A stretch of 64,000 nucleotides of DNA from Blastocatellia bacterium UBA7656. Its GTDB lineage: Bacteria; Acidobacteriota; Blastocatellia; UBA7656. The notes beneath the pieces are model-generated. The model was not told the origin of the DNA. It did not search any database and worked only from the letters and a program-made list of their open reading frames with translations. Position 1 is the first letter of the stretch, and the number at the start of each line of letters is the position of its first letter. Both the position numbers and the translations under genes were made by a program. The stretch is from positions 4,021 through 68,020 of the forward strand of contig DLHY01000152.1 of NCBI GenBank assembly GCA_002483445.1, read 5' to 3'. Positions 16,350-44,901 of the stretch are shown here, piece by piece.

Positions 16350-16593
16350 CAATTCTTCATCATTTCAGGGCGTCGTTGAAAACGGCCTGAGCGATTTCTC
16401 AGAAAACGTACAGCAGGCTGCCAGCCTGCGGGTTCCCCGTTTTCATGCTTTCAGTTCATGCGCAATCTAACAGATTGCGCCATAGGGAATCCTTTCTTGA
16501 AGCGGAGAAGTCTAGCACTCGGTCAGCGAGGCGGTCAATTTTCGCAGCCGTTGAAAGCCCGGTATCTGCGTGATAATCTTTCAACACTCCATA

Positions 16594-17565
16594 ATGAAGC
16601 CCGAAGGAAAAATAAATCTCTTTTCGCGCTCGAAGGCGCTGGTCGCCGCGACAGTAGCGGCAGTTTTTTTCATCTCTTCGGCTCTGGCCCAAAAAGAGCA
16701 GGTCATCAAGCTCAACACCGATCTCGTCGTCATCGATGTGACTGTCACCGACAAGGATGGCAACTTCATTCGCAACCTCAAGGCTGAGGATTTCGCGATC
16801 TACGAAGACGACCAGATGCAGAAGATCGATTTCTTCGAGATGAATGAAGAAGCGGCGCTGACACGTCCGCTCGCTGTCGTCTTCGCGCTGGACGTATCGG
16901 GCAGCATCACTTCCGAAGAAGTCATCAAGCAGCGCGAGGCGACCGAGCATTTCATGAAACTGGTTCGCACTGATTCGGTCTTCTCTATCATCGCTTTCAA
17001 CAATGAAATCCGAGTCCTTCAGGATTTCACCAGCGACGCGAAGCGAATCAGATCGGCTTTCGAGAAGATCAAAGAGGTCGGCGGCTCTTCAAGAATTTTC
17101 GGCTCGATAGATCGCTCGGTTTCCCTGCTCCGTCGCGCCCCGCGCTACAAAAGCGGAAGGCGGTTGCGTCGCGTGGTCGTCGTACTCAGCGACGGATTCG
17201 ACAACATAGACCCGACCGATCAGACGGAATTGATCCGCCGCGCCAACGAAGCAGAGGTCACGGTTTATTCGATCACGCTGCCTTCATACCTTCCGGGCGC
17301 GATTGCGAACCAGCGGTCGATGACCTTGCTCGATGTCTCGCGCATAGTGCCGATGACGGGAGGCAAGGATTTTTCGGCGGACACGAAAGATTTCACTCCC
17401 GTATTCAAATCCATCGCCGAAGAAATCCGCGCGAGTTATACGCTGGCCTATTATCCGCCCGAAGAGAGTCGAAGAGACGGGCGCGCGCATCAACTTCGCA
17501 TCGAAGCCCGCCGCAGCGGAGCGATAGTGCGCGCGAGTCGGACAACCTATCAGGCTCCCAAATGA
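16594..17565 (+). CDS. von Willebrand factor type A (VWA) domain protein, secreted.
   Basis: Signal peptide; MIDAS motif AVVFALDVSGSIT; typical VWA spacing (VLSDGFDN...). Start at MKPEGK (16594) preferred over the upstream ATG. Confidence 0.75.
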   Translation: MKPEGKINLFSRSKALVAATVAAVFFISSALAQKEQVIKLNTDLVVIDVTVTDKDGNFIRNLKAEDFAIYEDDQMQKIDFFEMNEEAALTRPLAVVFALDVSGSITSEEVIKQREATEHFMKLVRTDSVFSIIAFNNEIRVLQDFTSDAKRIRSAFEKIKEVGGSSRIFGSIDRSVSLLRRAPRYKSGRRLRRVVVVLSDGFDNIDPTDQTELIRRANEAEVTVYSITLPSYLPGAIANQRSMTLLDVSRIVPMTGGKDFSADTKDFTPVFKSIAEEIRASYTLAYYPPEESRRDGRAHQLRIEARRSGAIVRASRTTYQAPK

Positions 17566-17616: not shown

Positions 17617-20600
17617 TCAACTCCCATTGCCGCACGGGGCGACGATGCTGTCTCTGGTGTCAGAATCGATGATCGTACACTTCACCGTTCCCGGCGGCAT
17701 CTGCAACACTCCCTGCCCCTTCTTCTGACACGTGTCATAAGTCAGCGTCAGCCTCCTGTTCCCGGAGTTGTGCGTCAACGTCAACACGCATCCCTTCTTC
17801 ACTATCGTCCCCTTCCCGCTTACGATCATCCCTCCGCAGCACACCATGTAATCCCCCGTCAGCGTGTTGATGAATATCGCTCCTCCTCCGCTGTCGCTCC
17901 TTATCGCCACGTCGAACGTCGTCACGATGAAGCTGCAACTCGCAGTGTTGCCGCTCGTGTCCGTCGCCGTGCAAGTCACCGTCGTAAATCCTGCCGGGAA
18001 ACTCGATCCACTCGGCGGTGTGCAAACGGTCATCATCACTGCGCAGTTGTCCGATGAAGTCGGCGCTGGGTAATTCACCACCCCCGGCGGAGCCACCTGT
18101 GTCGGCGGACACACTATCGAAGGCGCCTGTGTGTCGTTGACCGTTACGGTGAAGCTGCACATCGCCGTGTTGCTGCTGGCGTCGGTCGCCGTGCAAGTCA
18201 CCGTCGTCGTCCCTACCGGGAATGTTGAGCCTGACGCGGGCGCGCACGCCACTCCTACTCCAGGACAGTTGTCCATCGCTGTTGCCATGAAAGTCACTAC
18301 CGCTGAACACTGCCCCGCTGTGTTTCCTGTCACTATGTTCGAGGGACACGTTATGCTCGGCGGCTGCATATCGTTGACCGTTACGGTGAACGAGCAGTTG
18401 GCTGTGTTGCCTGCTCCATCGCTCACTGTGCAGCCGACCGTTGTGACTCCTTTCGGGAATGTTGAGCCTGTCGGCGGGGTGCAAACCGGCGTCCCAACGC
18501 CAGAACAGTTGTCTGAGACCATCGGCGCTGAATAGCTCACGACTGCCGTACACACTCCCGCATCTGTTGACTGTGTGACCGGCGACGGACAGGTGATCGA
18601 AGGCGCATCGTCATCATTGATCGTTACACTGAAGCTGCACATCGCAGTGTTGCCGCTTGCGTCGGTCGCCGTGCAAGTCACCGTCGTCGTTCCTGTCGGG
18701 AATGATGTCCCGGTGTTTGGCGAGCAGGCCACACTCACTCCCGGACAGTTGTCCGCCCCTGTCGGCACCGTGTAGTTGACTATCGCTGCGCACATTCCAG
18801 CGTCCGTACCCTGCGTGATGTTAGAAGGACACATCACGGTCGGGTTCTCGGTGTCGTTGACCGTGACGGTGAACGAACAACTCGGCCCCACTGAGGTCGA
18901 ACACGTTACAGTCGTCGTGCCGACAGGGAACGATGAGCCTGATGCGGGATTGCAAGTCACCGTTCCGCAACTGCCCGTCGTCGTCGGGTTGGAGTAGCTG
19001 ACGACAGACGAACACTGGCCCGCGTCGTTGTTGGTCGTGATGTTCGACGGACAACTGATCGTGCATTGCACCACTTCTATGGTGAAAGAGCAGGAAGCTG
19101 TGTTGCTGCTGGCGTCAGTCGCCGTGCAGGTGACAGTCGTCATCCCAACGGGGAAGCACATCCCCGATGCTGGCGCGCAGACGACCATCGCTCCCGGACA
19201 GTTGTCTGTAGGAGTTGGAGTCGTGTAGTTGACCGTCGCGCAGCCAGCCCCGGTCGAAATCAGCATGTTGGGCGGGCAGGTGATCGAAGGAGGCTGATTG
19301 TCTGTCACCGTGACGGTGAAGGAACACATCGCCGTGTTGCCTGCTGCATCCGAGACCGAACAGGTAACGGTAGTCATCCCAACACTGAAGGATGAGCCTG
19401 ATGCGGGCGCACACATAGGCGTGCCGACTCCGGGACAGTTGTCCGAGGCCGTAGGCGGGGTGTAATTGACCGTTACGGTACACTGGCCCGCAGGCGGGGT
19501 CGTTGAGATATTAGACGGGCAGCCGATCAGCATCGGGTTTTCGGTGTCGTTGACCGTCACGGTGAAAGAGCATTGAGCCATCAGCCCTCCGGCATCAGTC
19601 ACGGTGCAGGTGACGGTCGTAGTCCCCTTGGGGAAAGCTGTTCCGGTGTTGGGAGCGCAGACGACATTGGCGCCTGGGCAGTTGTCCATCGGAGAGGGGA
19701 CGGTGTAGTTGACCACTGCTGTGCAAAGTCCCGAATCGGTGTTTGTAGTGGCGTTGGCCGGACAGGTGATGGTCGGATTCTCATTGTCGTTGACGGTGAC
19801 GGTGAAAGAGCAGTTGGCCGAGCCTGCTGAGTTGGTGGCCGAGCAGGTGACGGTAGTGACACCTTTGGGGAAAGCGAAGCCAGAAGCAGGAGAACACATC
19901 ACAGTAGGGACAGGGCAGCCGGTGACGGTGGGAGCGAAAGTTTCGACCGCCGTGCATTGACCCGGATCAGTATCAGTAGTGATGTTGGCCGGACAAGAGA
20001 TGGTCGGCACAGTGACTATAGTTGTGACAGTAGGCTGAGCGCCCATCATGCCAGCATCGCCGTCGGTTTGAATGTTAATGCCGCCATCGGCAGTGACAGT
20101 ACCCTGATTGGAGACAGAGCAGACACCATTGGGGAGCGGGTCATTGATCGTGACGTTGAACATGACGGTGATACTCTTGCCCGCAGGAAGGGTGAACGGG
20201 CCGAAGCTAACGGTCTCGCCGCTGGGAGTCATCACAGCAACACGTCTGGCGCGTGATCTGTAGTTGCTTGCGAACCCAGCAGGGTCAGCCCTCATCACGA
20301 CAGGCTTGAGCATCTCGTCAGATATAGCTGCCTGATCTGTCGCCGGGTTGAAGACGGCATAACGAGCATCGGCGGGAATTTTCGCCCTATCGGTTTGAAC
20401 ATTCGCCGTGCTGCTTTCAACCTGCGCGCCAGCGTGCTGGCTGCTCGCTTGCTTCACCGACTTGTCATCAGTAGAGGGCTTGATTGAGCCTATGGGCGAA
20501 GGAGTTACTTTCCACTGGTCAAGCGGCAAGCGCCTGACGCCAGGTGAAAGCGTGCCTTCCATAAGCGGCTGTAGGTTCTTCCGCTCTTTCTTCGGGAGCC

Positions 20601-23600
20601 GGTCTTTGCCCTGCATATAAACGTACCCAAGCTCGCGTATCACTACTGTGAGCAAGTCCATCTTGCCGTGCGCGATACTCAGGTCAGTCGTTTGAAGCTC
20701 TTTATCAGGAACAAGCACCTGGAATTCGCCGTCTTCCTGAGGTGTTTCATCGAAGTACCAGCCATAGCCTGCCGCCGTCTTATCAATCTTGACGTGTGTT
20801 GAAGAGACGTCTGCAAACTGATCGCCTGGCAAGTCAGCCATTTCGAATGAAACTGCGCGAAGGCGCGCGAGGTCTTCGGCAGCGATTTCTAACTGCTCCC
20901 ATCTTGCAAGGGCCGCTTGAACCGTCCATTGCAACTCGGCATCTTGGAGCTTATTAACCTGTTCTTCGCTTTGCCGCTCGCTGCTTGCGGCGACACAAGC
21001 GCTAGGAGGCCCCTTGCCTTCTTCGGGAGGCAGACTCAATGAGCCTGAGTCCGCAACGCCCCCTCTAAAAACAGATAATGGGGTCGTAATCGGCCCGGCA
21101 ATGAGCGCGACCCCGAACGCGGAGGCCGTGCCGGTATTTGTACTCGTCAATTGCGCCGTGGCATCGGCGCTCGCCGGCGGGGTGTCAACCAATTGCCCGA
21201 TGCCGTGACCGCCCGCCGCATCGTACTCGTAATAGGCAAGCTGCGTTGGAAGCAGGTCGAAAGTGGTCGTGCTGGGAACTATGTTGCCGCGCACGTCAGC
21301 CCGAACCGTTGGCGCTTTGTTGTCGGCACCAGTCTGGTTGTCGGCTTCGATCATAATCGCCGACAGAGGAAATCCAGATGGCGCCGGACCGGGGTCAACG
21401 TCGTTGTTAGTGAGGGTCACGTCGCTGGTCACGGTGTTCGGACCAAGGCTGCTGGCGAGAGGAGGCGCGGGGCCACGGAAAGCCACCGCGATACCGCGAG
21501 CGTCTGGCGTGCTCCTGATACGGTTGCCGTCGATGAGCATAGTAGCATCTGTCTGTCCCTGAATGACGACAGAAATGCCGCTGGCAACGGTGGCGCCATT
21601 GTTAATGTGGTTTCCCGAGATGGTGGCGACGATAGTGCCGCCGGTCGCCTGCGAGGATGAGAAGACGTTAACGGCCTGTAGAACAGTGCCAGTCATTGGA
21701 GACGCGAGCGTGCCATTATTGATGAACTTGAATGCATTGTTGGAACTGCTGTCCTGGGTGAAGCTGGCGTGGATGCCGTTGTTAGTGAACGTGTTGCCAG
21801 AGACGGTGAAATATGTTGCTGGTATGGCAGAAGTATTGCCGATTCTTCCGGTGTCGTGCGTCTGCACTTCCAAAGCTCGCTGGGGCGAGTTGTTGGTAAA
21901 CGTGCATCCGCTGATGCTCGCTACAGTCGTCACAGCCGTTCCCGACATCTCGAACAGGAACGCGTTGGCGCCGAACGTGTCGTTGAGGTCGTTGAAGGTG
22001 CTGTTCGTCACCGTGAACGAATCGATTGTCCCTGAGGTGTTGCGGAGGTGAACATTGTTGTGCGCGTTCCCGTTGACAGAGCTGTTGGTAATCGCTACGG
22101 TTCCGATTACACCCACAAAGGTACCCGATGGTTCGCCGAATCGAATTCCATCGTCGGAAGTGCTGTTGCCGTTGGTCGTGACGTTGCTGCGGTTGAGCGT
22201 GAAGCCATTGACATTGAGGCCCTTGATCCCGCTATCACCGCTGTTCTGGATGTTCATGTAGCCGAGGGAGACGTTGGTTGCGGCGTCGATTGCGACACCA
22301 TTCCCGCTTGAACTTTTGATAGAGCCCCCTGAGCCGTTGTTTGAAGCCCCGCCATCTCCTGCGACGGTAAAACTGCCGCTGGTTCTCGTAAGGATCAGGC
22401 CGCTTGTACCACCGCTTCCAGACGCCTCATTCATAGATACTTTCGTCAGCGTCATCATTAGTGGAGTTGTGCTGCTGCTGCGTGTGATCTCAACAGCCGT
22501 CGCGCTAGTGGTGCTGATAGTGCCGCTGGTCGTCGTGATGGTCATCGTGTTTTCGGTGGCGAGCAAGCCTCTCTGGTTTTGTTCCGGTGAGATGTTGAGA
22601 GCGCCAAATGTGATTGTGCCAGTGTTGGTAAGCAGGCTGACTCCTGTATTGCCTGTAGTGTTGGCATCTGGATTGGTTACGCTGGTAGTGCCAAAATTGA
22701 GAGTGGCGCTTGAAGTATTAACACTTATGCCAATGCCCGCCGCGTCCGTGACGGTTGTCGAACCAGACGACAGGCTACCGCTTGCGCTCGTCAGGCTTAT
22801 CCCTGTCGTCGTGCTGCCCGTCGATGTCAACGAGGTGAACGTCATCCCTATCGTCGTCGGATTGACATTGAGCGCAGGCCCGCCCGTCGCCACAACCGTA
22901 CCGCCGCTCACGTTGACCGTCCCGCTGCTCGCGGCTAGTATGCCCGTACCCGCTGTCACGCTGACCGTCACTCCTCCGCTGAAGTTGAATGTCGTCGCTC
23001 CGTTCGTTGCCAGATTGATTCCTGTCGCCGTGGCGTTCGTGATCGTAGTCGCTCCGCTTACGGTGAACGTCCCGCCCGTCGCTCCTGTCACTCTCAACCC
23101 TTGCGCTCCCGTCGTCGAACTCGCGCTCTCCAACGTCACCCCCAGCGTTCCCGCTGTCTGAATATCAACAGCCGCTCCCGGATTGCCCACCGCCTGCACT
23201 GTATCAGCGTTGAGGTTCCCGACGCTCGATCCGCCTATTCCTGCGCTTGCTCCTCCGGCGGCTGTCGTCTGCGCGACGAGTCCTCGCACCGTGTTGCCGC
23301 TTGCCAGCGTCACTCCGTTTCCTCCGCTATTGGTGATCGTCGGCTTCGCTCCCGCTGGGTTGAGCGTCAGGCTCGCGACGACCAAAGCCACTCCTTGCCC
23401 GATCAGTTTCTGACCAGTTTCAAGTCCTATCCCTGTCGTGTAATTCCCGCTTCCCGTGTGCACATAGATGAACTCGTTGGGATCGTCCGCGTCTCCCGCG
23501 CCTCCCGCTCCGTTTACTGGCGCGAGTGTCTGGAAGGGTGAAGTGGAACGTCCGTCGCCGCCTGCCGCTGATGCGTTGTTGACGTACCAGACCATCTCCG

Positions 23601-24285
23601 TGACCGTGATCGTGACTGTAGCCGTGCTGGTCTTTCCTGCCGAATCCTTGATCGTGTAGGTGAAGGTGTCTGTCCCGGTGAATCCTACCGGCGGCACATA
23701 GTCGAGATGGCCAAAGACCGGGTTGATGCTGACGTTGCCTCCCTGCGCGCTCGGATTTTGAAATGTGTCGAGCGTGAAAGTATCGCCGAGGAACTCCATA
23801 TCGTTGTCGAAGAGCGAGTCTCCTGGAATTACGACTTCAGGGCCGCTCACCGAGGCACTACCGACCTTGAGGCGAGTATTGCCGATAGTCGTGTAAGCGT
23901 CGTTGCCCGCCAGAGGCGAGACGTTGACTGATCCCATCACCAGAGTGGTGTTGGCGTCAATCATATCGGTGAACATCACGTTGGTAGCCGGGTCGGGGCC
24001 TCCATTGGAGAGAGTGACGGAGTACATCAAGGTGTCGCCGGGTTCGGCATTCCCGCCATTGACATCAGTGGCCGTTTTGGTCGCTGACAGGGAAGGAGCG
24101 AATGGGGCGGAGGTGATGACCGAAACCGGATCAAGGACAGAGGACATCTCGCTTTTGACAACAGGGATCGAATTCTCTGATCGAGAGGAAGAGGCGGGCT
24201 GGATGGCCAGCAGCAGCGTCAATCCTACGATGGCTGCTGATGAACGAATCAAAGTACCGGCAAGGCTAACACGATTTCTCCTCAT
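17617..24285 (-). CDS. Giant secreted surface/adhesin-like protein (~2222 aa): signal peptide, parallel beta-helix/POMP-like T/S/G-rich region, 9 tandem HYR domains, conserved C-terminal module.
   Basis: Start ATG 24285 with GGGAG SD (MRRNRVSLAGTLIRSSAAIVGLTLLLA). Nine CPxN...PxGxxF.xGxTxVTCxAxDxxGNxxxCSFTVTV units (HYR). C-terminal ~100 aa has a CCGG...LTL.HN...LQ.PPG...C.I.D..RD...CG.GGS pattern shared with the 38757..40877 protein. Confidence 0.8.
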   Translation of the reverse strand: MRRNRVSLAGTLIRSSAAIVGLTLLLAIQPASSSRSENSIPVVKSEMSSVLDPVSVITSAPFAPSLSATKTATDVNGGNAEPGDTLMYSVTLSNGGPDPATNVMFTDMIDANTTLVMGSVNVSPLAGNDAYTTIGNTRLKVGSASVSGPEVVIPGDSLFDNDMEFLGDTFTLDTFQNPSAQGGNVSINPVFGHLDYVPPVGFTGTDTFTYTIKDSAGKTSTATVTITVTEMVWYVNNASAAGGDGRSTSPFQTLAPVNGAGGAGDADDPNEFIYVHTGSGNYTTGIGLETGQKLIGQGVALVVASLTLNPAGAKPTITNSGGNGVTLASGNTVRGLVAQTTAAGGASAGIGGSSVGNLNADTVQAVGNPGAAVDIQTAGTLGVTLESASSTTGAQGLRVTGATGGTFTVSGATTITNATATGINLATNGATTFNFSGGVTVSVTAGTGILAASSGTVNVSGGTVVATGGPALNVNPTTIGMTFTSLTSTGSTTTGISLTSASGSLSSGSTTVTDAAGIGISVNTSSATLNFGTTSVTNPDANTTGNTGVSLLTNTGTITFGALNISPEQNQRGLLATENTMTITTTSGTISTTSATAVEITRSSSTTPLMMTLTKVSMNEASGSGGTSGLILTRTSGSFTVAGDGGASNNGSGGSIKSSSGNGVAIDAATNVSLGYMNIQNSGDSGIKGLNVNGFTLNRSNVTTNGNSTSDDGIRFGEPSGTFVGVIGTVAITNSSVNGNAHNNVHLRNTSGTIDSFTVTNSTFNDLNDTFGANAFLFEMSGTAVTTVASISGCTFTNNSPQRALEVQTHDTGRIGNTSAIPATYFTVSGNTFTNNGIHASFTQDSSSNNAFKFINNGTLASPMTGTVLQAVNVFSSSQATGGTIVATISGNHINNGATVASGISVVIQGQTDATMLIDGNRIRSTPDARGIAVAFRGPAPPLASSLGPNTVTSDVTLTNNDVDPGPAPSGFPLSAIMIEADNQTGADNKAPTVRADVRGNIVPSTTTFDLLPTQLAYYEYDAAGGHGIGQLVDTPPASADATAQLTSTNTGTASAFGVALIAGPITTPLSVFRGGVADSGSLSLPPEEGKGPPSACVAASSERQSEEQVNKLQDAELQWTVQAALARWEQLEIAAEDLARLRAVSFEMADLPGDQFADVSSTHVKIDKTAAGYGWYFDETPQEDGEFQVLVPDKELQTTDLSIAHGKMDLLTVVIRELGYVYMQGKDRLPKKERKNLQPLMEGTLSPGVRRLPLDQWKVTPSPIGSIKPSTDDKSVKQASSQHAGAQVESSTANVQTDRAKIPADARYAVFNPATDQAAISDEMLKPVVMRADPAGFASNYRSRARRVAVMTPSGETVSFGPFTLPAGKSITVMFNVTINDPLPNGVCSVSNQGTVTADGGINIQTDGDAGMMGAQPTVTTIVTVPTISCPANITTDTDPGQCTAVETFAPTVTGCPVPTVMCSPASGFAFPKGVTTVTCSATNSAGSANCSFTVTVNDNENPTITCPANATTNTDSGLCTAVVNYTVPSPMDNCPGANVVCAPNTGTAFPKGTTTVTCTVTDAGGLMAQCSFTVTVNDTENPMLIGCPSNISTTPPAGQCTVTVNYTPPTASDNCPGVGTPMCAPASGSSFSVGMTTVTCSVSDAAGNTAMCSFTVTVTDNQPPSITCPPNMLISTGAGCATVNYTTPTPTDNCPGAMVVCAPASGMCFPVGMTTVTCTATDASSNTASCSFTIEVVQCTISCPSNITTNNDAGQCSSVVSYSNPTTTGSCGTVTCNPASGSSFPVGTTTVTCSTSVGPSCSFTVTVNDTENPTVMCPSNITQGTDAGMCAAIVNYTVPTGADNCPGVSVACSPNTGTSFPTGTTTVTCTATDASGNTAMCSFSVTINDDDAPSITCPSPVTQSTDAGVCTAVVSYSAPMVSDNCSGVGTPVCTPPTGSTFPKGVTTVGCTVSDGAGNTANCSFTVTVNDMQPPSITCPSNIVTGNTAGQCSAVVTFMATAMDNCPGVGVACAPASGSTFPVGTTTVTCTATDASSNTAMCSFTVTVNDTQAPSIVCPPTQVAPPGVVNYPAPTSSDNCAVMMTVCTPPSGSSFPAGFTTVTCTATDTSGNTASCSFIVTTFDVAIRSDSGGGAIFINTLTGDYMVCCGGMIVSGKGTIVKKGCVLTLTHNSGNRRLTLTYDTCQKKGQGVLQMPPGTVKCTIIDSDTRDSIVAPCGNGS

Positions 24286-24909
24286 AACATCACTCCCTTT
24301 GTGAAGGCGGACGAGCCGCTCGGCGATATTAAACGGGATCATTTTTCCGGCCTGATCTTCCTCGACGGCATCTGGGGAAATGCCGGATCAGGCTATTGCG
24401 TAGGCATTCAGAGATAGAGCCTCAGAGTCAAGCGCGCAAAGCGTCGCCGTGGAGATGAGACTCGATTCTCAAAAACAGAAAGCAGGCGCGCACATACTGA
24501 AAGCGCGCGACAGGGCGGCGAAACACAGTGAGCGAAAAGAGCCTTTTGTTTTTACCATTCCGGTTTCGAAAGACCGTAAGTTATGCTCGAAGCGAACTGC
24601 AAAAACACTGAAACATTGGCTGATGAAGAATCGTCAGTCGGGGCTTATCTTACTCGACCACAGGTCGAATATCCAGACAAGTTTTCTACCGGCAATTGAA
24701 GGCATCAAGTCGGGTGAAGCGCAGCCTTATGCATTGTGCGTTTACGAATTGAAAGTATTGAAACCTCGCTCCACTATCAGTACAATCCCGACTGTCCGAT
24801 CTGCCCCCGATTCGCCAGTATCCTCATTCGAAAAAATATAGCTGATCGACACCGATTGATCGGCCCGCGTCCTCACCACCCGATTCGCGCTCCGACTCTT
24901 AGTGAAAGG

Positions 24910-34519: not shown

Positions 34520-34794
34520 TTTTTCATTCTCCTGATATGGGGTTTTAATCTTCGGAACTCAAGCCAGTCTACGACGTGAGAGCGGCGAAAGTTCTAAATC
34601 CGTTTATTTATACAGCAAAACAACTGGGGGCGAAAGGGCGCACAACGCCGAACTTTTGAAAACTGCGCCCGTTTGCACATTTCGCAAACCTGCGGAATTC
34701 AACACGACATCTTGCTTCACACTTGCCAAACGCAGACAACTGCGAGATAAATGCACCTGAATCAGGTGTTTTGGCTTTCCGGGGAGAGGGCATA

Positions 34795-37700
34795 ATGCTG
34801 ATCGGTCGATCGAGCAGTCCAAAGGTCTATCAGTATCCACACCTGTACAGACCTCCGCAAGCGCGAAAAGAGATCGGTCATTGGCAGAAGATTTGTCGAA
34901 GCGCCCTTCTATGGCCCGCGATCGTAATTCTTATAGCCCTCGGGAGAGCGGCTCCTCCTGGTCTCGCCTCGCAACCCGGCTCAACCCCATCGCAGATCGA
35001 CCGTCAGTATATTCGGACCGTGTGGACATCGGAGGAGGGCCTGCCGCAAAACTCGGTCAACGCCATCGTGCAAACGCGCGATGGCTACTTGTGGCTGGGT
35101 ACGTTTGGAGGACTCGTGCGATTTGACGGGCTCAAGTTCACGGTCTTCAATTCGGGCAATACGCCGGGATTGAAGGGCAACCGGATTCTGGCACTTTATG
35201 AGGACCGCGCGGGTACCTTATGGATCGGCACAGAGAGCGGGGAGGTGATGAGCCTCAAAGATGGGCAGGCTCGCACCTTCACCACCGCTGACGGTCTGCC
35301 CGGCGGGCTGGTCAGGTGCTTCTTTGAAGACCAGGCTGGCACGCTCTGGATCGGCACGACCTTCGGCCTCGTCTGCTGGCAGCCGGGCAACGTCAAGACC
35401 TACACACCGTGGGATGTCCCGGTAGACAATTGGGTGTGGGCGATCTATGAAGACCGTCCGGGCCACCTGTTGATCGGCATGAATGGCGGGCTGGTCGAGT
35501 TTTCCAACGGCAGGGCGATCCCGCGCGATACCAGCGGGAATGTCTGGGCGTTCCTCTCCAGCCCGCAAGGCAGCCTGTTGCTGGGCACCAGCAACGGGAT
35601 CGCCCGCTTCGTCAATGGCCGGCTGATGGCAGATCCCAGGACGAAAGGGTTGGCCGCCCAGTCGGTCCGCATGATGGTCCCGGACCGGACCGGAAATCTC
35701 TGGATCGGGTATGTTGAGATGGGCATCATCAGCCGCTGGCAGGCCGGAGCATCAACTGACCGATTGGAAAAAATCGATCTGGGACCGAGTCCGATTATGG
35801 CTCTCTGTGTCGACCGCGAAGGCAACCTGTGGGTCGGCACGCGGGGCGGCGGACTGGCGCGGCTCAAGGAACGCAAGCTGAGGGCTTATGGGTCGGAAGA
35901 CGGCTTATCTGATAGCATTCGGGCCATCGTCGATGATGGCGGGGATGGCGTCTGGGCAGCCACCGCTAATGGGCTGGCCCATATATCGGGTGGTCAGGAG
36001 CCGCGGATCACGACCTACCGAGACGGATTGCCAAACACTTACTTGCAGGCGCTTTACCGGGACCGCAGCGGGGCGCTGTGGTTCGGCTCCGGCAACGGGT
36101 TCGATGGGTTGATCCGATTCAAGGATGGCGCGTTTACCATCTACTCAGAGGCGTCGGGATTATCGCACACCTCGGTTAACGCCATTGTCGAAGACCGCGA
36201 GGGCTATCTATGGGTCGGCACCACTGGCGGCTTGAATCGATTCCGCGACGGGAGATTCGTCAGCTACCGCACGGCTGAAGGACTGATCCATAACGACATA
36301 CGGTATCTTCTGCCGGCGGCGGACGGCAGCCTCTGGCTGGGCACGGTTGGCGGGCTGAGTCACTTCCACAACGGCGCGTTCACCAACTACACCTCCGAAC
36401 AGGGTCTGTCGAACAATTTTGTTCGAACCATCCTGGAACAGAGCGATGGGACATTGTGGATCGGCACGTATGGCGGAGGACTCAACCGCTTCAAAGATGG
36501 GCGCTTCACGCCGGTCACGGTCAAGGATGGGCTGTTTGATGACTACATCTCGCAGATCATCGAGGATAATCGGGGGCGCTACTGGATGTTGAGCAACCGA
36601 GGCATCTTTCATGTCGCCGCCAGCGAGTTGAACGATCTTGCCGACCGCCGGGTCAGCGCCATCACCTGCATCTCGTATGGCATCGGCGATGGAATGAAGA
36701 GCAGCGAGGGCAACGGCGGCATTCAGCCCGCCGGGTGCAAGGCGAGGGACGGCAAGTTCTGGTTCGCCACCATCAAGGGACTGGTCGCCATCGATCCGGA
36801 GTCCAGCAGCGCATTGCTGCCTCCGGTACGGATTGAGCAGGTCGTGCTCGACCGGCAAGCGCTGCCGCTCGGCCAGAGGGTGCGAATCGAGCCCGGCCAG
36901 GAGAGCCTTGAGATTCATTACACGGGATTGAGTTTCACCCGCCCGGAACAAATTCGATTCAAGTACCGATTGAGCGGACTCGATCACGACTGGGTTGATG
37001 CCGGGACGCGACGGGTGGCCTACTATTCTCACATTCCGCCGGGCGAATATGTCTTCTCGGTCATAGCGGCAAGCAGTGACGGCGTGTGGAACGAGTCGGC
37101 GGCGACGCTTGCCGTCACCATCGTGCCGCCATTTTGGAGAACGTGGTGGTTTACTCTGCTCGGGGCCTCGCTCGTGATTGCAGTCGCGGTATTTCTCTAC
37201 ACGCGCCGCATCTCGGCGCTAAAGCGCGCGCACGCAGTTCAGGAAGCATTCTCCCGACAGCTCATCGAATCGCAGGAAGCGGAGCGCAAACGAATCGCCG
37301 CAGAACTTCATGACTCTCTGGGTCAGAACCTCCTGGTCATAAAAAACCGCGCGATGCTTGCGATGAGGACGGCAGATGACGGCACTATCGAACAACTGAA
37401 CGAGATTTCATCGACTACCGATCAGGCGATAGACGAAGTATCAGAAATCTCATACAACCTGCGCCCCTATCATCTCGACCGCCTCGGACTCACCCGCGCC
37501 ATAGAAGCGATGCTGCGCCGCGTATCGGAATCGTCGGGCATAACGTTTTCATCCGATGTCGATCAGATAGACAGGCTCTTCGATCAGAATGCTGAGATCA
37601 GCATCTATCGCATAGTGCAGGAGAGCGTAAACAACATCGTCAAGCATTCGGGCGCGACCGAAGCGCGAGTGACCATAAAGAAAAACGGGCGCGAGATACA

Positions 37701-37896
37701 GATAGAGATTCGAGACAACGGGCATGGAATCAATCGCGAAGTCGGCGCGAACGATTCACGCAATGGAGGATTCGGACTCATCGGCATAGCCGAGCGCGCA
37801 AGGATGCTCGGAGGTCGTCACTCTTTGCAATCGGCTGCAAGCGGGACCATCATAACCGTCAATATCGATTTGCCTGAAGGAAAAAATGATGACTGA
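34795..37896 (+). CDS. Sensor histidine kinase with periplasmic two-component-regulator-propeller (Reg_prop) repeats, Y_Y_Y domain, TM helix, HisKA_3 and HATPase_c.
   Basis: Many LWIGT/LWVGT propeller repeats; FWRTWWFTLLGASLVIAVAVFLY TM helix; AAELHDSLGQNL H-box; C-terminal GGFGLIGIAERARMLGG ATPase G2 box. Confidence 0.85.
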   Translation: MLIGRSSSPKVYQYPHLYRPPQARKEIGHWQKICRSALLWPAIVILIALGRAAPPGLASQPGSTPSQIDRQYIRTVWTSEEGLPQNSVNAIVQTRDGYLWLGTFGGLVRFDGLKFTVFNSGNTPGLKGNRILALYEDRAGTLWIGTESGEVMSLKDGQARTFTTADGLPGGLVRCFFEDQAGTLWIGTTFGLVCWQPGNVKTYTPWDVPVDNWVWAIYEDRPGHLLIGMNGGLVEFSNGRAIPRDTSGNVWAFLSSPQGSLLLGTSNGIARFVNGRLMADPRTKGLAAQSVRMMVPDRTGNLWIGYVEMGIISRWQAGASTDRLEKIDLGPSPIMALCVDREGNLWVGTRGGGLARLKERKLRAYGSEDGLSDSIRAIVDDGGDGVWAATANGLAHISGGQEPRITTYRDGLPNTYLQALYRDRSGALWFGSGNGFDGLIRFKDGAFTIYSEASGLSHTSVNAIVEDREGYLWVGTTGGLNRFRDGRFVSYRTAEGLIHNDIRYLLPAADGSLWLGTVGGLSHFHNGAFTNYTSEQGLSNNFVRTILEQSDGTLWIGTYGGGLNRFKDGRFTPVTVKDGLFDDYISQIIEDNRGRYWMLSNRGIFHVAASELNDLADRRVSAITCISYGIGDGMKSSEGNGGIQPAGCKARDGKFWFATIKGLVAIDPESSSALLPPVRIEQVVLDRQALPLGQRVRIEPGQESLEIHYTGLSFTRPEQIRFKYRLSGLDHDWVDAGTRRVAYYSHIPPGEYVFSVIAASSDGVWNESAATLAVTIVPPFWRTWWFTLLGASLVIAVAVFLYTRRISALKRAHAVQEAFSRQLIESQEAERKRIAAELHDSLGQNLLVIKNRAMLAMRTADDGTIEQLNEISSTTDQAIDEVSEISYNLRPYHLDRLGLTRAIEAMLRRVSESSGITFSSDVDQIDRLFDQNAEISIYRIVQESVNNIVKHSGATEARVTIKKNGREIQIEIRDNGHGINREVGANDSRNGGFGLIGIAERARMLGGRHSLQSAASGTIITVNIDLPEGKNDD

Positions 37897-38539
37897 GATC
37901 ACCATACTCATAGCAGACGATCATCCCATATTTCGCAAAGGGCTTCGACAGATCATCGAATCGGGGAGCGGAATGAATGTCGTGGCCGAAGCCGACGACG
38001 GGGAAGCGTGTTATGAAAAAGCCCGCGAACTGAAGCCCGACGTAATCATACTCGATGTGAACATGCCCAAAATGGACGGCTTCGAAGTCGCGCGCAAGCT
38101 TCACGATTCGAACCTGTCGGTCGAAGTCGTTTTCCTGACTATGTACAAAGACGAAGAGATGTTCAACGAAGCGCTCGACCTCGGAGCCAGAGGGTATGTT
38201 TTGAAATCGAGTGCGCTGACCGACATCGTCGACTGCGTGCGCGCGGTCTCTTCAGGTCAGCATTACATCAGCCCCACGCTTTCCGACTTCCTCCTCAATC
38301 GCAGAAACCGTGCCGCGAGTTTCGTCAGGAGCAAGCCTTCGATAGGCGATCTCACGCCAACGGAGTTGCGCATACTGAGGCTGATTGCCGAATCAAAAAC
38401 GAGCAAGGAAATCGCCGCCGAACTTTTCATCAGCTACCGCACAGTCGAAAATCACCGCGCAAACATCTGCCAGAAACTCGACCTCCACGGCTCGAATGCG
38501 CTGGTCAAATTTGCAATTGAACATAAATCGGCCCTTTAG
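37886..38539 (+). CDS. Response regulator, NarL/FixJ (LuxR-type HTH) family.
   Basis: ITILIADDHPIFRKGL...DVIILDVNMPKMDG receiver domain; C-terminal LTPTELRILRLIAESKTSKEIAAELFISYRTVENHRANICQKL LuxR HTH. 11-bp overlap with the kinase gene. Confidence 0.9.
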   Translation: MMTEITILIADDHPIFRKGLRQIIESGSGMNVVAEADDGEACYEKARELKPDVIILDVNMPKMDGFEVARKLHDSNLSVEVVFLTMYKDEEMFNEALDLGARGYVLKSSALTDIVDCVRAVSSGQHYISPTLSDFLLNRRNRAASFVRSKPSIGDLTPTELRILRLIAESKTSKEIAAELFISYRTVENHRANICQKLDLHGSNALVKFAIEHKSAL

Positions 38540-38594: not shown

Positions 38595-38756
38595 CCTGAG
38601 TGGACACACTTAGAAAAATGAGCGTCGACACTCACCCCGCTCGTGAGGGTTCCTCTATTTAATCCAACTCCCTTTTCCCCCATCATAGCTCGTGAACAGG
38701 CTTCGGCCATCGAGGGGATTGCTGATTTGTTCACTTTGCATTCAGGAGGAATTTCA

Positions 38757-40877
38757 ATGATTTCTGCCCGTCTTCAACGCTTTTACTTTTTTCTTTGCAT
38801 ATCACTATCAATAATCGCTTCTTTCTGCGTGCTCCTCTGGCTCATAACCCGTTCGGCCTCGCAGGCGGCTACAGGCCCGATGTTTTCACAATTGCAGAAA
38901 TTGACTGCGCCGGACGGCGGGCCGAATAACCTCTTCGGCAACTCAGTCGCCATCAGCGGCGATACTGCCATCGTTGGCGCTTTCGCACACGGAGGGCCTT
39001 TGCCCGACGAAGCCGGAGACGGAGCGGCGTATATATTCGTCAATGCAGGTGGCGTGTGGAGCCTCCAGCAGAAGCTGCTCCCACCAGGTGGGCCGTTTCT
39101 TAAGGGTTTCGGTGCATCAGTCGCAATCGACGGCGATACGCTCGTGGTCGGCGCCCCCGGTGTAGATTTGACTGGGGCCGCATACGTGTTCGTGAGAGCC
39201 GCCGGGGTGTGGAGCCAGCAGCAGAAGCTGACGGCATCGGACGCGGCGTCGGGCGATGCTTTCGGCACCTCTCTGGCAATCAGCGGCGATACAGTGATCG
39301 TTACCGCTAGATTTGACCATGTAGGAGCGAATTTGTCTCAAGGCTCGGCCTATGTATTTGTGAGATCAGGCGGGTTGTGGAGCGAACAGCAGAAGCTGAC
39401 CGCATCGGACGGTGGAATGAGTGACTTCTTTGGCAACTCAGCCGCCATCAGTGGCAACACTATCGTCATTGGGGCTCAATTTGCCAATGTGGTGGGGAAG
39501 GCGGATCAAGGCTCGGCTTATGTATTTGTGAGAGCCGCCGGGGTGTGGAGCGAGCAGCAGAAGCTGACCGCATCGGACGGCGCGGAGTTTGACCATTTCG
39601 GCGAATCAGTCGCCATCAACGACGATACCATCGTCGTTGGCGCTTCCGGTGACGATGCAGGGGCGGGTGCGTTCCAGGGATCGGCTTATGTGTTTGCGAG
39701 AACGAGCGGGGTGTGGAGCGAGCAGCAGAAGCTGACCTCATCAGATGCGGGGGGGGGTGACGGGTTCGGTTCATCAGCCGCCATCAGCGGCGAGACGATC
39801 GTCGTTAGCGCTCCTCGGAAGCAGATAGGAGGGAATCCATTCCAAGGTGCAGCCTATGTGTTTGTGAAAGCGGGCGGGGTGTGGAGCGAGCAGCAGAAGT
39901 TGATTGCCTCGGACGGAAAAAAGGCTGACGGGTTCGGCACATCAGTCGCCATCGACGGCGAGACGATTGTCGCTGGCGCTCCCTTTGACCCGGTAGGGGG
40001 GAACGACGATCAAGGCTCGGCTTATATCTTCATGCCCAACACTCCTCCCGCTATCACCGCTTCACCTGTCACACTTCAGCAGGGACGAGCGATCAACGAC
40101 ACAAACATCGCCACTGTCTCCGACAATGAGCAGGCTGCCTCCCTGCTTAACGTCTCAGTCGTCTCAGGCGGCACTGCCACAGGCATCACTCTCACGAACA
40201 TCGTCAACATCGGCGGCGCGATCACCGCCGACGTGGCGGCAACCTGCGCGGCAACGGGCGGGACGGTGCGGCTGCGCGTGACCGATACAGGCGGCTTTAC
40301 GAGTGAAGCCGATCTTCAAGTCAACATCACTCCGAACGATCCGCCTGTGATCACCTGTCCGCCGAATTTGATCGCGAAGGCGGCAACACCCGGCAGCGCA
40401 ATGTCGATGATCATTTATCCGCTGCCTACTGCTACGGACGACTGCGGCGTGATGAGCGTAGTGTGCAATCCGCCTTCAGGCTCATCATTCCCGGCGGGGA
40501 CGACGACCGTCACCTGCACTGCGACCGACACGACAGGAAACACCGCGCGGTGCAGTTTCATCATCACCCTCTTCGATGTCTGCCTTCAGGATGATTCCAA
40601 CCCCGCTCGCTCGATGCTCTTCATCAGTTCAGGCCCACAGGCGGGCGAATACCGCTTCTGCTGCGGAGGCGCGATGAAAACCGGCAGAGGAGTTGTCGCA
40701 AGAAAAGGGAACACCTTCACCCTCGCTCACAACACTGCTGACCTCAGAGTGCAGGCCACAGTCGACAGCAGCACTGCGAGAGGCTCGGCCCTGCTGCAAT
40801 CTCCTCCCGGCTCTGCGCCCTGCTCGATTACCGACAGGAACATAAGAGACAACTCATGTGGCTGCGGCGGCAGTTAG
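38757..40877 (+). CDS. Secreted FG-GAP-repeat beta-propeller protein with one C-terminal HYR domain and the conserved C-terminal module shared with the giant adhesin.
   Basis: ATG 38757 with AGGAGGA SD; N-terminal TM/signal. ~8 repeats of FG.SVAISGDT.VVGA...G..QGSAYVFVR.GGVWSEQQKLTASDG. HYR unit ITCPPNLIAKAATPGS...VTCTATDTTGNTARCSFIITLFDV. Then FCCGG...TLAHN...LQSPPG..PCSITDRNIRDNSCGCGGS. Confidence 0.75.
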   Translation: MISARLQRFYFFLCISLSIIASFCVLLWLITRSASQAATGPMFSQLQKLTAPDGGPNNLFGNSVAISGDTAIVGAFAHGGPLPDEAGDGAAYIFVNAGGVWSLQQKLLPPGGPFLKGFGASVAIDGDTLVVGAPGVDLTGAAYVFVRAAGVWSQQQKLTASDAASGDAFGTSLAISGDTVIVTARFDHVGANLSQGSAYVFVRSGGLWSEQQKLTASDGGMSDFFGNSAAISGNTIVIGAQFANVVGKADQGSAYVFVRAAGVWSEQQKLTASDGAEFDHFGESVAINDDTIVVGASGDDAGAGAFQGSAYVFARTSGVWSEQQKLTSSDAGGGDGFGSSAAISGETIVVSAPRKQIGGNPFQGAAYVFVKAGGVWSEQQKLIASDGKKADGFGTSVAIDGETIVAGAPFDPVGGNDDQGSAYIFMPNTPPAITASPVTLQQGRAINDTNIATVSDNEQAASLLNVSVVSGGTATGITLTNIVNIGGAITADVAATCAATGGTVRLRVTDTGGFTSEADLQVNITPNDPPVITCPPNLIAKAATPGSAMSMIIYPLPTATDDCGVMSVVCNPPSGSSFPAGTTTVTCTATDTTGNTARCSFIITLFDVCLQDDSNPARSMLFISSGPQAGEYRFCCGGAMKTGRGVVARKGNTFTLAHNTADLRVQATVDSSTARGSALLQSPPGSAPCSITDRNIRDNSCGCGGS

Positions 40878-41783: not shown

Positions 41784-41878
41784 TCGAGTTATGAAAAAGT
41801 AATGCGTGATCCGCAGGGTCTTGCGCAGAAGCCATTACACGAATGACAGAGAACGTTGATCCTATATGGACTGCTTTG

Positions 41879-42253
41879 ATGAAGCTAATGATAGTCGATG
41901 ACAACGAGCAGATGCGCAGAACCATTCGAAGCATAGTCGGCGACCTCGTTGAAGAGGTTTACGAATGTGAAGATGGCAAAGAGGCCATCGCGCTTTATGC
42001 CAAGCGGCGACCGGATTGGGTAATAATGGATCTTCGGATGAAAAAGATGGACGGGCTGGAAGCCACAAGGCGAATCACATCGTTATTCCCGGATGCTCGA
42101 ATAGCGATAGTAACCGACTATGACGATTCAGACCTGCGAGAAGCGGCGCGCGAGGCCGGAGCCTGCCAGTATATAAACAAGCGTCGTCTCTTCGATCTGC
42201 GCCCGCTGCTTTCGCCGCAGTCAGACTTGAAGCCGCCTCATCATGTCGAATGA
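41879..42253 (+). CDS. Single-domain response regulator (CheY-like receiver only).
   Basis: MKLMIVDDNEQMRRTI...DWVIMDLRMKKMDGLEA...IVTDYDD receiver motifs; no output domain. Confidence 0.75.
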   Translation: MKLMIVDDNEQMRRTIRSIVGDLVEEVYECEDGKEAIALYAKRRPDWVIMDLRMKKMDGLEATRRITSLFPDARIAIVTDYDDSDLREAAREAGACQYINKRRLFDLRPLLSPQSDLKPPHHVE

Positions 42254-42733
42254 GGGCTGATGCCCGCAAAGCAACCGATGCGCTGCTGCATCGCTCGATG
42301 AGTGAACATTTGCGCCACAGCGCGTCTGTTGACCTTCTCCCCAATCGCCCTACTCTGCCTGATCAAATATCTCACGACCTGAAGCGAACAGGCTTCGACA
42401 AAGCGCGAAACCAGTTGTTCGAGCGCAGTCAATTTGACTGAAAAACGCGCTTCTGCTATCGAACGCTCGCGATAGTTTTCATTCCCCATTCAGGTTTGAT
42501 TTCGAGCCAATAGTGCAAGCCAGTATTTCCGCAAATTTTCCTGCGTCGAGCGCCGACGTGCGAGTCCATTCACTTTGCCAACACTCGGTCGTTTTGATGA
42601 TCAAGTCTGATGTGAGGCAGATGTGTGACAACAGACACCACAATCGATGATGTCATTTTGATGGCATACCTGTTGCACCACTCAGTGTTCGGATGCGATG
42701 AAATCGCTCCGCTGGCAGGTTGGGAGTAAGACA

Positions 42734-43866: not shown

Positions 43867-43876
43867 AGGAGGCAAT

Positions 43877-44890: not shown

Positions 44891-44901
44891 AGGATAAAGT
44901 T

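What the first reader, a model, noticed from the sequence alone, without database searches (positions are those of the whole stretch)
17617..17935. Conserved ~100-aa C-terminal module following HYR domains, shared by two large secreted proteins
The last ~100 residues of the 2222-aa adhesin (FDVAIRSDSGGGAIFINTLTGDYMVCCGGMIVSGKGTIVKKGCVLTLTHNSGNRRLTLTYDTCQKKGQGVLQMPPGTVKCTIIDSDTRDSIVAPCGNGS) and of the FG-GAP protein at 40575-40877 (FDVCLQDDSNPARSMLFISSGPQAGEYRFCCGGAMKTGRGVVARKGNTFTLAHNTADLRVQATVDSSTARGSALLQSPPGSAPCSITDRNIRDNSCGCGGS) align throughout, with conserved Cys positions. Both follow an HYR unit. A shared cysteine-rich terminal module on otherwise unrelated surface proteins suggests a sorting, anchoring or secretion-recognition tag, analogous to Por/T9SS CTDs or PEP-CTERM. 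I do not recognise it as a described domain.
Basis: seen in the sequence. Interest (0 to 1): 0.7.

Follow-up and report, generated by a model that had tools for sequence, protein, structure and literature searches.

The report
New C-terminal barrel domain, Acidobacteria surface proteins
The shared ~97-residue tail of the two big secreted proteins is real: it is an undescribed, disulfide-stapled small beta-barrel domain that ends hundreds of otherwise different secreted proteins, almost all from one class of soil Acidobacteria, and it most likely serves as a common surface-targeting or anchoring module, though that role is inferred and not shown.

Summary
The two tails lie at 17620-17916 on the minus strand and 40572-40874 on the plus strand. 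They are 37% identical (E 3e-24), and each is followed directly by a stop codon.

The tail is not part of HYR (hhalign probability 0.7%). It matches no Pfam, NCBIfam or PDB sequence family.

An exhaustive profile search finds 1340 protein clusters (50% identity). In 152 of 156 examined proteins the module ends within 12 residues of the C-terminus. The regions upstream of the module vary: HYR stalks in 81%, plus FG-GAP, LamG, beta-helix, propellers and P-domain. About 86% have signal-peptide-like N-termini.

The genomes that carry it are almost all Blastocatellia MAGs, often with several copies, including runs of up to 6-7 adjacent module-bearing genes. One variant is from Abditibacteriaceae.

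AlphaFold gives a confident model (pLDDT 93.6) of a small up-and-down beta-barrel of about eight strands. Covarying cysteines suggest disulfides that pin its two ends. Solved structures match it only at generic fold level, and it is not a T9SS-like sandwich.

No conserved sortase or translocon neighbour was found. Stand-alone, N-terminal and internal copies also exist.

My best reading is a lineage-specific surface-targeting or anchoring domain. This is inferred, with confidence about 0.45. A ligand-binding module is the main rival.

The parts
17620..17916 (-). Module copy A (99 aa, FDVAIRSD...APCGNGS); stop codon at 17617-17619. It belongs to a divergent subfamily: no C4/C96, with an extra Cys pair.
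   Evidence: Close relatives at 66-83% identity in metagenomes. AF2 pLDDT 79.
40572..40874 (+). Module copy B (101 aa, FDVCLQDD...NSCGCGGS); stop codon at 40875-40877. It belongs to the main family, with 6 Cys.
   Evidence: AF2 pLDDT 93.6, pTM 0.83. 51-62% identity to the close main-family members chosen for alignment A3.
17617..24285 (-). Gene for the 2222-aa secreted adhesin-like protein (from MRRNRV...). Domain order: signal peptide, DUF11, Big_9/cadherin-like, a long low-complexity/beta-helix-like region, 9 HYR units, module A.
17917..20007 (-). Array of 9 HYR units that abuts module A with no linker (…CSFIVTT|FDVAI…).
   Evidence: hhalign of HYR against the module gives probability 0.7%.
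38757..40877 (+). Gene for the FG-GAP protein. The likely start is MISARLQ; the longest ORF starts at 38643 and the public gene call at 38829. Domain order: signal peptide, 7 FG-GAP_2 repeats, an Ig-like region, one HYR (about 40338-40571), module B.
   Evidence: Orthologues at 41-59% identity in Blastocatellia/Acidobacteriota MAG loci.
34723..38539 (+). Reg_prop/Y_Y_Y sensor histidine kinase plus LuxR-type response regulator, directly upstream of the FG-GAP-HYR-module gene. This neighbourhood recurs next to module-bearing genes in other genomes (an orthologue in L011, other module genes in L018, L035 and L052). It is probably the regulator of this particular gene, not a partner of the module in general.

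Best explanation
SHOWN. The tail is an autonomous domain of about 95-100 residues that belongs to a large family with no existing description.
- The consensus is FDxCLQDDSN..LLFNS.TGDYrFCCgG...tG.GtV..kG...tL.HN..DRRv.A..D.....G.AsLQsPPG...CtItDRnt.NN.C.C.
- The predicted fold is a compact up-and-down beta-barrel of about eight strands.
- Cysteine covariation points to one disulfide joining the first strand to the C-terminal CxC tail (C4-C96). It also points to links from the CC motif to C84, and probably to C98. Together these would pin both ends of the domain.
- The domain terminates hundreds of Sec-exported multidomain proteins, almost all from Acidobacteriota class Blastocatellia. It usually sits directly after an HYR stalk.

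INFERRED mechanism.
1. After Sec export and oxidative folding in the periplasm, the barrel acts as a common handle.
2. A shared partner recognises it. The partner could be an outer-membrane translocon/receptor or a cell-envelope or matrix component.
3. This takes or holds otherwise different passenger domains at the cell surface.
4. HYR repeats act as the stalk between the anchor and the functional head.

In kind this resembles the C-terminal 8-stranded barrel of T11SS/Slam cargo or the T9SS CTD. The module is not a member of either family, and it is probably retained, not cleaved off.
For: - Extreme C-terminal position. 152 of 156 proteins end within 12 aa of the module, and 84 end exactly one residue after the profile. 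In 6-frame scans, 85 of 87 copies have a stop codon within 12 aa.
- Size and coherence of the family. There are 1340 clusters at E<=1e-3 and 841 at E<=1e-10.
- Varied upstream regions on one conserved tail. Among 67 members: HYR in 54, FG-GAP_2 in 10, Laminin_G_3 in 7, Beta_helix in 4, P_proprotein in 3, Lactonase in 3, plus DUF5122, PPC and others.
- Export signals. 95 of 111 full-length members have a signal-peptide-like N-terminus and my crude lipobox pattern found none among the 111 (P0011 does have a lipoprotein-like LVFSGC), so the module is the only shared candidate for cell attachment.
- Lineage restriction with several copies per genome and tandem gene arrays. 71 loci come from 36 genomes, nearly all Blastocatellia/Pyrinomonadaceae. 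L021 has 6-7 module genes in 20 kb.
- Extracytoplasmic folding. Cysteines covary: C4 with C96, phi 0.78; C84 with C30/C31, 0.55/0.46.
- The conserved polar motifs (QDD, HN..DRR, LQSPPG, TDR..NN) are kept in members that lack HYR and in stand-alone copies. They therefore serve the module's own function and not an interface with HYR.
Against: - No conserved neighbouring translocon, sortase or peptidase. The recurrent neighbours are Ser/Thr kinases, response regulators, ADOP-like permeases and CHAT-TPR proteins, which I take (from general knowledge, not tested here) to be common families in Acidobacteria.
- Some copies are not C-terminal. P0090 has it at the N-terminus. P0014 has one just after the signal peptide and one at the C-terminus. 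P0083 and P0099 have an internal copy plus a C-terminal one. P0011 has an internal tandem pair, and L050 has 339 aa after the module.
- A stand-alone 'signal peptide + module' gene is conserved in synteny in two metagenomes.
- HYR runs into the module with no linker (…CSFxVTV|FDVCLQDD…), which argues against a cleavable tag.
- No localisation, cleavage or binding data exist.
Confidence: 0.45

Rival explanations
1. The module is a ligand-binding functional domain (lectin-, avidin- or lipocalin-like, or a dockerin-like protein-binding module). It would be the adhesive or recognition end of these proteins, binding an environmental or matrix ligand, and would play no part in sorting or in anchoring to the producing cell.
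For: - The fold class is shared with avidins, lipocalin-like binders, PliC-type inhibitors and NHBA.
- Conserved polar and charged motifs sit in the loops.
- Stand-alone secreted copies, bivalent proteins with a copy at both ends (P0014) and tandem copies (P0011) are typical of binding modules.
- No sorting machinery was found nearby.
Against: - The module ends at the last residue in about 97% of proteins, which is stricter than most CBM or lectin modules.
- The barrel is very small (about 95 aa, strands of 4-7 residues), which leaves little room for an internal ligand cavity (inference).
- With the signal peptide cleaved and no lipobox, nothing else in these proteins would hold them on the cell.
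Confidence: 0.3
2. The module is a structural cap or folding nucleus for the HYR stalk. It would be a terminal domain that stabilises or nucleates folding of the preceding Ig-like array and would have no partner.
For: - 54 of 67 members have HYR, usually fused directly with no linker.
- Disulfides pin the N- and C-termini of the module together.
Against: - 13 of 67 members lack HYR; for example, in P0028 the module follows FG-GAP directly, and in P0083 it follows a beta-helix.
- Stand-alone and N-terminal copies exist.
- The surface polar motifs are conserved whatever lies upstream.
- None of the 9 HYR units in the window array carries the extension.
Confidence: 0.1
3. The module is a divergent member of a known C-terminal sorting family (T9SS type A/B CTD, PEP-CTERM or another exosortase/sortase signal), or an outer-membrane-embedded 8-stranded anchor barrel of the OmpA/OmpX/OmpW type.
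For: - C-terminal position on many secreted proteins.
Against: - None of the 68 members hits Por_Secre_tail, TIGR04183, TIGR04131, PEP-CTERM or any other Pfam/NCBIfam model.
- The predicted fold is a barrel, whereas the T9SS CTD is a 3+4 beta-sandwich (PMC11285876).
- There is no hydrophobic C-terminal helix.
- Strands of 4-7 residues, charged residues within strands, 6 cysteines and a C-x-C-x end with no terminal aromatic residue do not fit a transmembrane barrel (sequence; inference).
Confidence: 0.03
4. The similarity is just the tail of the HYR domain, or arises by chance or composition.
For: Both copies follow an HYR unit.
Against: - Pairwise E 3e-24.
- hhalign of the module profile against the HYR profile gives probability 0.7%.
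- Internal HYR units lack the extension.
- Family members without HYR exist.
Confidence: 0.01

Closest known systems
[quoted passage not shown]
   Same: - A small soluble up-and-down barrel of the same general kind sits at the C-terminus of proteins with variable N-terminal effector regions and a beta-rich 'pedestal' or stalk in between.
- Some cargo has a second, internal barrel (the TbpB lobes), as P0014, P0083 and P0099 do here.
   Different: - No sequence similarity: no Pfam TbpB_B_D or lipoprotein-C hit.
- This module is smaller (about 95 aa) and stapled by disulfides.
- The host is Acidobacteriota, whereas T11SS outer-membrane proteins are described from Proteobacteria.
- No recurrent outer-membrane protein gene lies beside 87 copies.
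- No lipobox pattern was found among the 111 full-length members checked.
T9SS C-terminal domains (type A TIGR04183/Por_Secre_tail; type B TIGR04131) of Bacteroidota
   Same: - A folded C-terminal domain of about 80-100 aa shared by dozens of Sec-exported proteins per genome with diverse passenger regions.
- It is lineage-restricted.
   Different: - The fold differs: barrel against a 3+4 Ig-like sandwich (PMC11285876, PMC4804311).
- No model hit.
- There is no linker or cleavage region before the module.
- Non-C-terminal copies exist.
- The phylum differs.
DUF1842 (PDB 8t0b)
   Different: - 6-8% identity and no sequence-profile hit.
- Its function is itself unknown, so it gives no functional lead.
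Dockerin, SLH and CBM-type terminal binding modules
   Same: - A small autonomous module, usually at the C-terminus of many different secreted proteins in one organism.
- Stand-alone and repeated copies occur.
- It would tether enzymes or adhesins to a common scaffold or wall polymer.
   Different: - The fold and sequence are unrelated.
- No cohesin-like partner has been identified.
- Binding has not been tested.

Membership tests
HYR domain (PF02494) | Match to the HYR profile; the same extension present on all HYR units | tested here: not met
   Pfam HYR ends one residue before the module. hhalign of the module against the window's HYR repeats gives probability 0.7%. No other copy exists in the window. 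13 of 67 members have no HYR.
T9SS CTD (Por_Secre_tail PF18962 / TIGR04183 / TIGR04131) | Sequence match to the CTD models | tested here: not met
   No hit at E<=1 for the two window copies and none at E<=0.01 for 68 members.
T9SS CTD (Por_Secre_tail PF18962 / TIGR04183 / TIGR04131) | Seven-stranded Ig-like 3+4 beta-sandwich fold | tested here: not met
T9SS CTD (Por_Secre_tail PF18962 / TIGR04183 / TIGR04131) | T9SS machinery (PorU/PorV/SprA and others) in the genome | not testable with these tools
   Whole genomes could not be scanned. Nothing of the kind was seen in the window ORFs that were annotated (about 30 of them) or among recurrent neighbours in the flanks.
PEP-CTERM / exosortase and LPXTG / sortase signals | Short motif, then a hydrophobic helix and a basic tail at the C-terminus; match to the models | tested here: not met
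   The C-terminus is ...DRNxxNNxCxCx, polar and without a hydrophobic segment. No NCBIfam or Pfam hit.
T11SS (Slam) cargo barrel | C-terminal 8-stranded soluble beta-barrel | tested here: met
T11SS (Slam) cargo barrel | Sequence homology to the TbpBBD / lipoprotein-C barrel families | tested here: not met
   No Pfam or NCBIfam hit. No PDB sequence hit with the profile.
T11SS (Slam) cargo barrel | Co-occurring (often adjacent) DUF560 outer-membrane protein | tested here: inconclusive
   No recurrent outer-membrane protein cluster was found among neighbours of 87 copies in about 1 Mb. Neighbour ORFs were not scanned against the DUF560 model one by one, and whole genomes could not be searched.
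Outer-membrane 8-stranded barrels (OmpA/OmpX/OmpW/PagL) | Membrane-spanning amphipathic strands of about 9 or more residues, aromatic girdles, a C-terminal aromatic beta-signal | tested here: not met
   Strands are 4-7 residues. Conserved charged residues lie in and around the strands, there are six cysteines, and the terminus is C-x-C-x with no aromatic end. This judgement comes from sequence and model, not from an energy calculation.

The most novel reading that the evidence does not exclude
The barrel is the recognition signal of an outer-membrane translocation or attachment pathway that has not been described. The pathway would be specific to Blastocatellia (with sporadic transfer, for example to Abditibacteriaceae). 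It would be a barrel-directed system that works like T11SS or T9SS but uses unrelated machinery. If so, it would account for how these Acidobacteria display their large HYR, FG-GAP and beta-helix surface proteins.
Probability: 0.2. Interest if true: 0.8.

Novelty: new variant of a known kind. Interest (0 to 1): 0.55.

Why it matters
Acidobacteria are among the most abundant soil bacteria, yet how they export and display their many giant surface proteins is largely unknown.

A sharply defined domain that marks the C-terminus of many of these proteins gives three things:
- a ready-made profile for annotating what is now called 'hypothetical' or 'HYR domain-containing' protein;
- a marker set of likely surface or secreted proteins in Blastocatellia;
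- a concrete handle (phylogenetic profiling, pull-downs) for finding the partner, which could be a new sorting or anchoring system.

Even if it proves to be only a binding module, it is a new, confidently modelled disulfide-stapled mini-barrel family.

Tried and rejected
- HYR tail or chance similarity: rejected.
- Known sorting domains (T9SS CTD, PEP-CTERM and others): no model hits for the 2 window copies or for 68 family members, and the fold differs.
- afdb50 fold search: the library was unavailable, so AlphaFold-DB neighbours were not examined.
- Conserved partner gene next to module genes: all-vs-all clustering of about 700 neighbour ORFs from 73 sources gave only Ser/Thr kinase-TPR, response regulators/NtrC, ADOP-like permeases and CHAT-TPR (6 loci, which I judged compatible with background without measuring the background rate).
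- The HK/RR/receiver cassette next to window gene B is conserved, but only in a few loci around particular module-bearing genes (window, L011, L018, L035, L052), not with the module in general.
- Context of the stand-alone and tandem variants: no secretion genes.
- Genome scan with the diverse alignment A2: failed because it was too divergent. It was repeated with the closer alignment A3. Genome counts are therefore lower bounds, biased towards main-family sequences.
- Literature searches for the motif, and for HYR or C-terminal domains in Acidobacteria/Blastocatellia: nothing relevant.
Disulfide pairing rests on covariation only.
Full report
1. The observation.

- Copy A is on the minus strand at 17620-17916, with its stop at 17617-17619. 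It ends a 2222-aa protein (ORF 17617-24342, probable start at 24285).
- Copy B is on the plus strand at 40572-40874, with its stop at 40875-40877. It ends the FG-GAP protein (ORF 38643-40877).

The finding's coordinates are slightly off. It gave no strand, and its range for A adds about 6 codons of HYR. Its range for B starts one codon late.

BLASTP gives 37% identity over 94 residues, E 3e-24. tblastn of both copies against the whole window finds only these two. None of the nine HYR units in the large protein therefore carries such an extension.

2. It is a domain of its own.

- Pfam HYR ends at residue 642 of the FG-GAP protein and the module begins at residue 644.
- A profile of 68 modules compared with a profile of the window's nine HYR units gives hhalign probability 0.7%.
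- Neither the two copies nor 68 family members hit any Pfam-A or NCBIfam model at meaningful E-values.
- The family profile hits no PDB sequence.
- Text searches found no description.

3. The family.

A word-indexed search first gave eight close relatives of copy A, at 51-83% identity. A profile built from these, scored against 1.84 billion cluster representatives, gave 1340 proteins at E<=1e-3, 841 at <=1e-10 and 8 at <=1e-30.

Position within the protein:
- Re-scanning the 156 retrieved proteins, 152 have the module ending within 12 residues of the C-terminus. 84 end exactly one residue after the profile.
- In six-frame scans of 73 DNA sources, 85 of 87 copies have a stop codon within 12 residues.

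The main-family consensus is FDxCLQDDSN..LLFNS.TGDYrFCCgG...tG.GtV..kG...tL.HN..DRRv.A..D.....G.AsLQsPPG...CtItDRnt.NN.C.C. Copy B is a typical member. Copy A belongs to a divergent subfamily.

4. What the module is attached to.

- Pfam families among 67 full-length members: HYR in 54, FG-GAP_2 in 10, Laminin_G_3 in 7, Beta_helix in 4, P_proprotein in 3, lactonase propeller in 3. DUF5122, DUF11, CHRD, PPC and others also occur.
- Where HYR is present it runs into the module with no linker (…CSFxVTV|FDVCLQDD…).
- HYR is not required. In P0028 the module follows FG-GAP directly, and in P0083 it follows a beta-helix.
- 95 of 111 full-length members have a signal-peptide-like N-terminal hydrophobic segment. 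The remainder look like mis-called starts. A crude lipobox pattern found none among these 111, though P0011 has a lipoprotein-like LVFSGC.

5. Exceptions.

- P0090 has the module at its N-terminus, after the signal peptide and a Thr/Pro linker.
- P0014 has one copy right after the signal peptide and a second at the C-terminus.
- P0083 and P0099 have an internal copy and a C-terminal copy.
- P0011 has an internal tandem pair.
- In L050, 339 residues follow the module.
- P0222 and P0213 are small proteins made only of a signal peptide plus the module. Their genes sit in the same neighbourhood (after a GFO_IDH_MocA oxidoreductase gene) in two different metagenomes, so they are real stand-alone genes.

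6. Who has it.

- A pattern scan of one genome per GTDB species, confirmed by tblastn, returned 71 loci from 36 genomes.
- Almost all are labelled Blastocatellia, Pyrinomonadaceae or Acidobacteriota.
- A few MAGs are labelled 'uncultured Clostridia' or 'Bifidobacterium'. Their loci have 54-59% G+C, like the window and some Blastocatellia loci, so the labels are probably wrong. I could not verify this.
- The P0011 cluster includes an Abditibacteriaceae protein, so there is some spread outside the class.
- Several genomes have 4-6 loci even under this restrictive scan. L021 has six or seven consecutive module-bearing genes.
- The window itself is a biofilm-metagenome contig (ENA ERZ922866). It carries the Acidobacteria signature family acidobact_VWFA above cutoff.
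- Its FG-GAP-HYR-module gene has relatives at 41-59% identity in Blastocatellia and Acidobacteriota MAGs.

7. Structure.

- With a shallow alignment, copy A gave pLDDT 79.
- With 68 sequences, copy B gave pLDDT 93.6 and pTM 0.83. The model has nine short strands (4-7 residues), which I read as a small up-and-down barrel of about eight strands, with a short C-terminal tail.
- Foldseek finds nothing at E<=1e-3.
- The AFDB library was not available.
- The fold is therefore of a common class with no close solved relative. It is not the 3+4 sandwich of T9SS CTDs (PMC11285876, PMC4804311).

8. Cysteines.

Among 236 distinct modules, 123 have six Cys. The pattern of joint loss is:
- C4 with C96, phi 0.78;
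- C84 with the CC motif, 0.55/0.46;
- C47 with C67, 0.39.

This suggests disulfides that tie the first strand to the terminal CxC and the CC motif to C84/C98. Disulfides imply folding outside the cytoplasm.

9. Neighbourhood.

- Clustering about 700 neighbour ORFs found no recurrent sortase, peptidase or outer-membrane protein.
- The recurrent families are Ser/Thr kinase-TPR, response regulators and NtrC, ADOP-like permeases and CHAT-TPR. I take these (general knowledge, not tested here) to be common families in Acidobacteria.
- The sensor kinase, LuxR regulator and single-domain receiver around window gene B recur in L018, L035 and L052, with weaker relatives in L011. That is a conserved neighbourhood of particular module-bearing genes, not a property of the module.

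10. Interpretation.

SHOWN:
- The module is a new, large, lineage-restricted domain family.
- It is independent of HYR and almost always at the extreme C-terminus of Sec-exported proteins whose upstream regions differ.
- It is confidently predicted to be a small barrel, and its cysteines covary.

INFERRED:
- It is a common handle by which these proteins are targeted to, or held at, the cell surface, with HYR as the stalk.
- The closest functional analogue by architecture and fold class is the C-terminal 8-stranded barrel of T11SS cargo. By distribution, the closest is the T9SS CTD.
- It fails the sequence tests for both families and the fold test for T9SS, so it is a member of neither.

Three observations keep a plain ligand-binding role, or less likely a stalk-capping role, open:
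- copies that are not C-terminal, and stand-alone copies;
- the absence of a linker before the module;
- the absence of any identified partner.

I put about 0.45 on targeting/anchoring, 0.3 on a binding module with no sorting role and 0.1 on a structural cap. Membership of a known family, or an artefact, is negligible.

11. Verdict.

Its 'sorting tag' reading is plausible but unproven. The finding is a genuine new domain family and a lead to how Blastocatellia display surface proteins. Interest is moderate to good (0.55).

Noticed in passing
window 11175-14000 (-): A UDP-glucose/GDP-mannose dehydrogenase gene is interrupted by an intein with a LAGLIDADG homing-endonuclease domain. The Intein_splicing and LAGLIDADG_3 hits lie between the central and C-terminal dehydrogenase domains.
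   Followed up: no
window 42698-46926 (+): A cluster of four minor (pseudo)pilin-like genes lies about 1.8 kb downstream of module gene B. They are GspH/FimT-like, PilV-like, GspJ/PilW-like and a 674-aa protein with PilX_N. The cluster does not recur next to module genes in other loci at the thresholds used.
   Followed up: partly
window 34723-38539 (+) and 41843-42253 (+); L018, L035, L052, L026, L019: A Reg_prop/Y_Y_Y sensor kinase, a LuxR-type regulator and a small single-domain receiver recur next to module-bearing genes in several genomes (RR 58-61% identity, HK 42-44%, receiver 52-57%). They are probably a dedicated regulator of these surface proteins.
   Followed up: partly
L074 7001-7423 and L075 7001-7345: A stand-alone gene encodes only a signal peptide plus the module. 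It is conserved after a GFO_IDH_MocA oxidoreductase gene, and near a multihaem cytochrome gene and an M1 peptidase-TPR gene, in two unrelated metagenomes.
   Followed up: partly
L021 1-20285 (also L025, L060, L064, L003, L005): Tandem arrays of paralogous genes on one strand all end in the module. There are up to 6-7 in 20 kb in a MAG labelled 'uncultured Clostridia', which is probably a mislabelled Acidobacteriota genome (57% G+C).
   Followed up: partly
P0239 (ENA contig of 69,652 nt): The C-terminal half of this protein matches window copy B closely (71% identity over 78% of the query) and has the same ...DRNIRDNSCGCGGS end. Its N-terminal 90 residues are unrelated and Arg-rich. It looks like a frameshifted or mis-called orthologue of the FG-GAP gene in a related genome.
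   Followed up: no
window 16570-17565 (+): An acidobact_VWFA (TIGR03436) protein, 161.8 bits against a cutoff of 81, is convergent with the adhesin gene and ends 52 nt from its stop codon. It is a useful taxonomic marker that places the window in Acidobacteriota.
   Followed up: yes
window 7359-9167 (-) and 24736-27186 (+): Two other apparently secreted proteins in the window end in different domains and lack the module: a 602-aa protein with a C-terminal PPC domain, and an 816-aa beta-helix/PKD protein. Not all exported proteins of this organism therefore use the module.
   Followed up: partly
P0011 / P0246 (L076 8001-10070): An Abditibacteriaceae protein with a lipoprotein-like signal peptide carries two tandem internal copies of a variant module. 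The variant lacks the first strand's FD..LQDD motif and ends in C-G-A-C. This is the only clear occurrence outside Acidobacteriota that was seen.
   Followed up: partly
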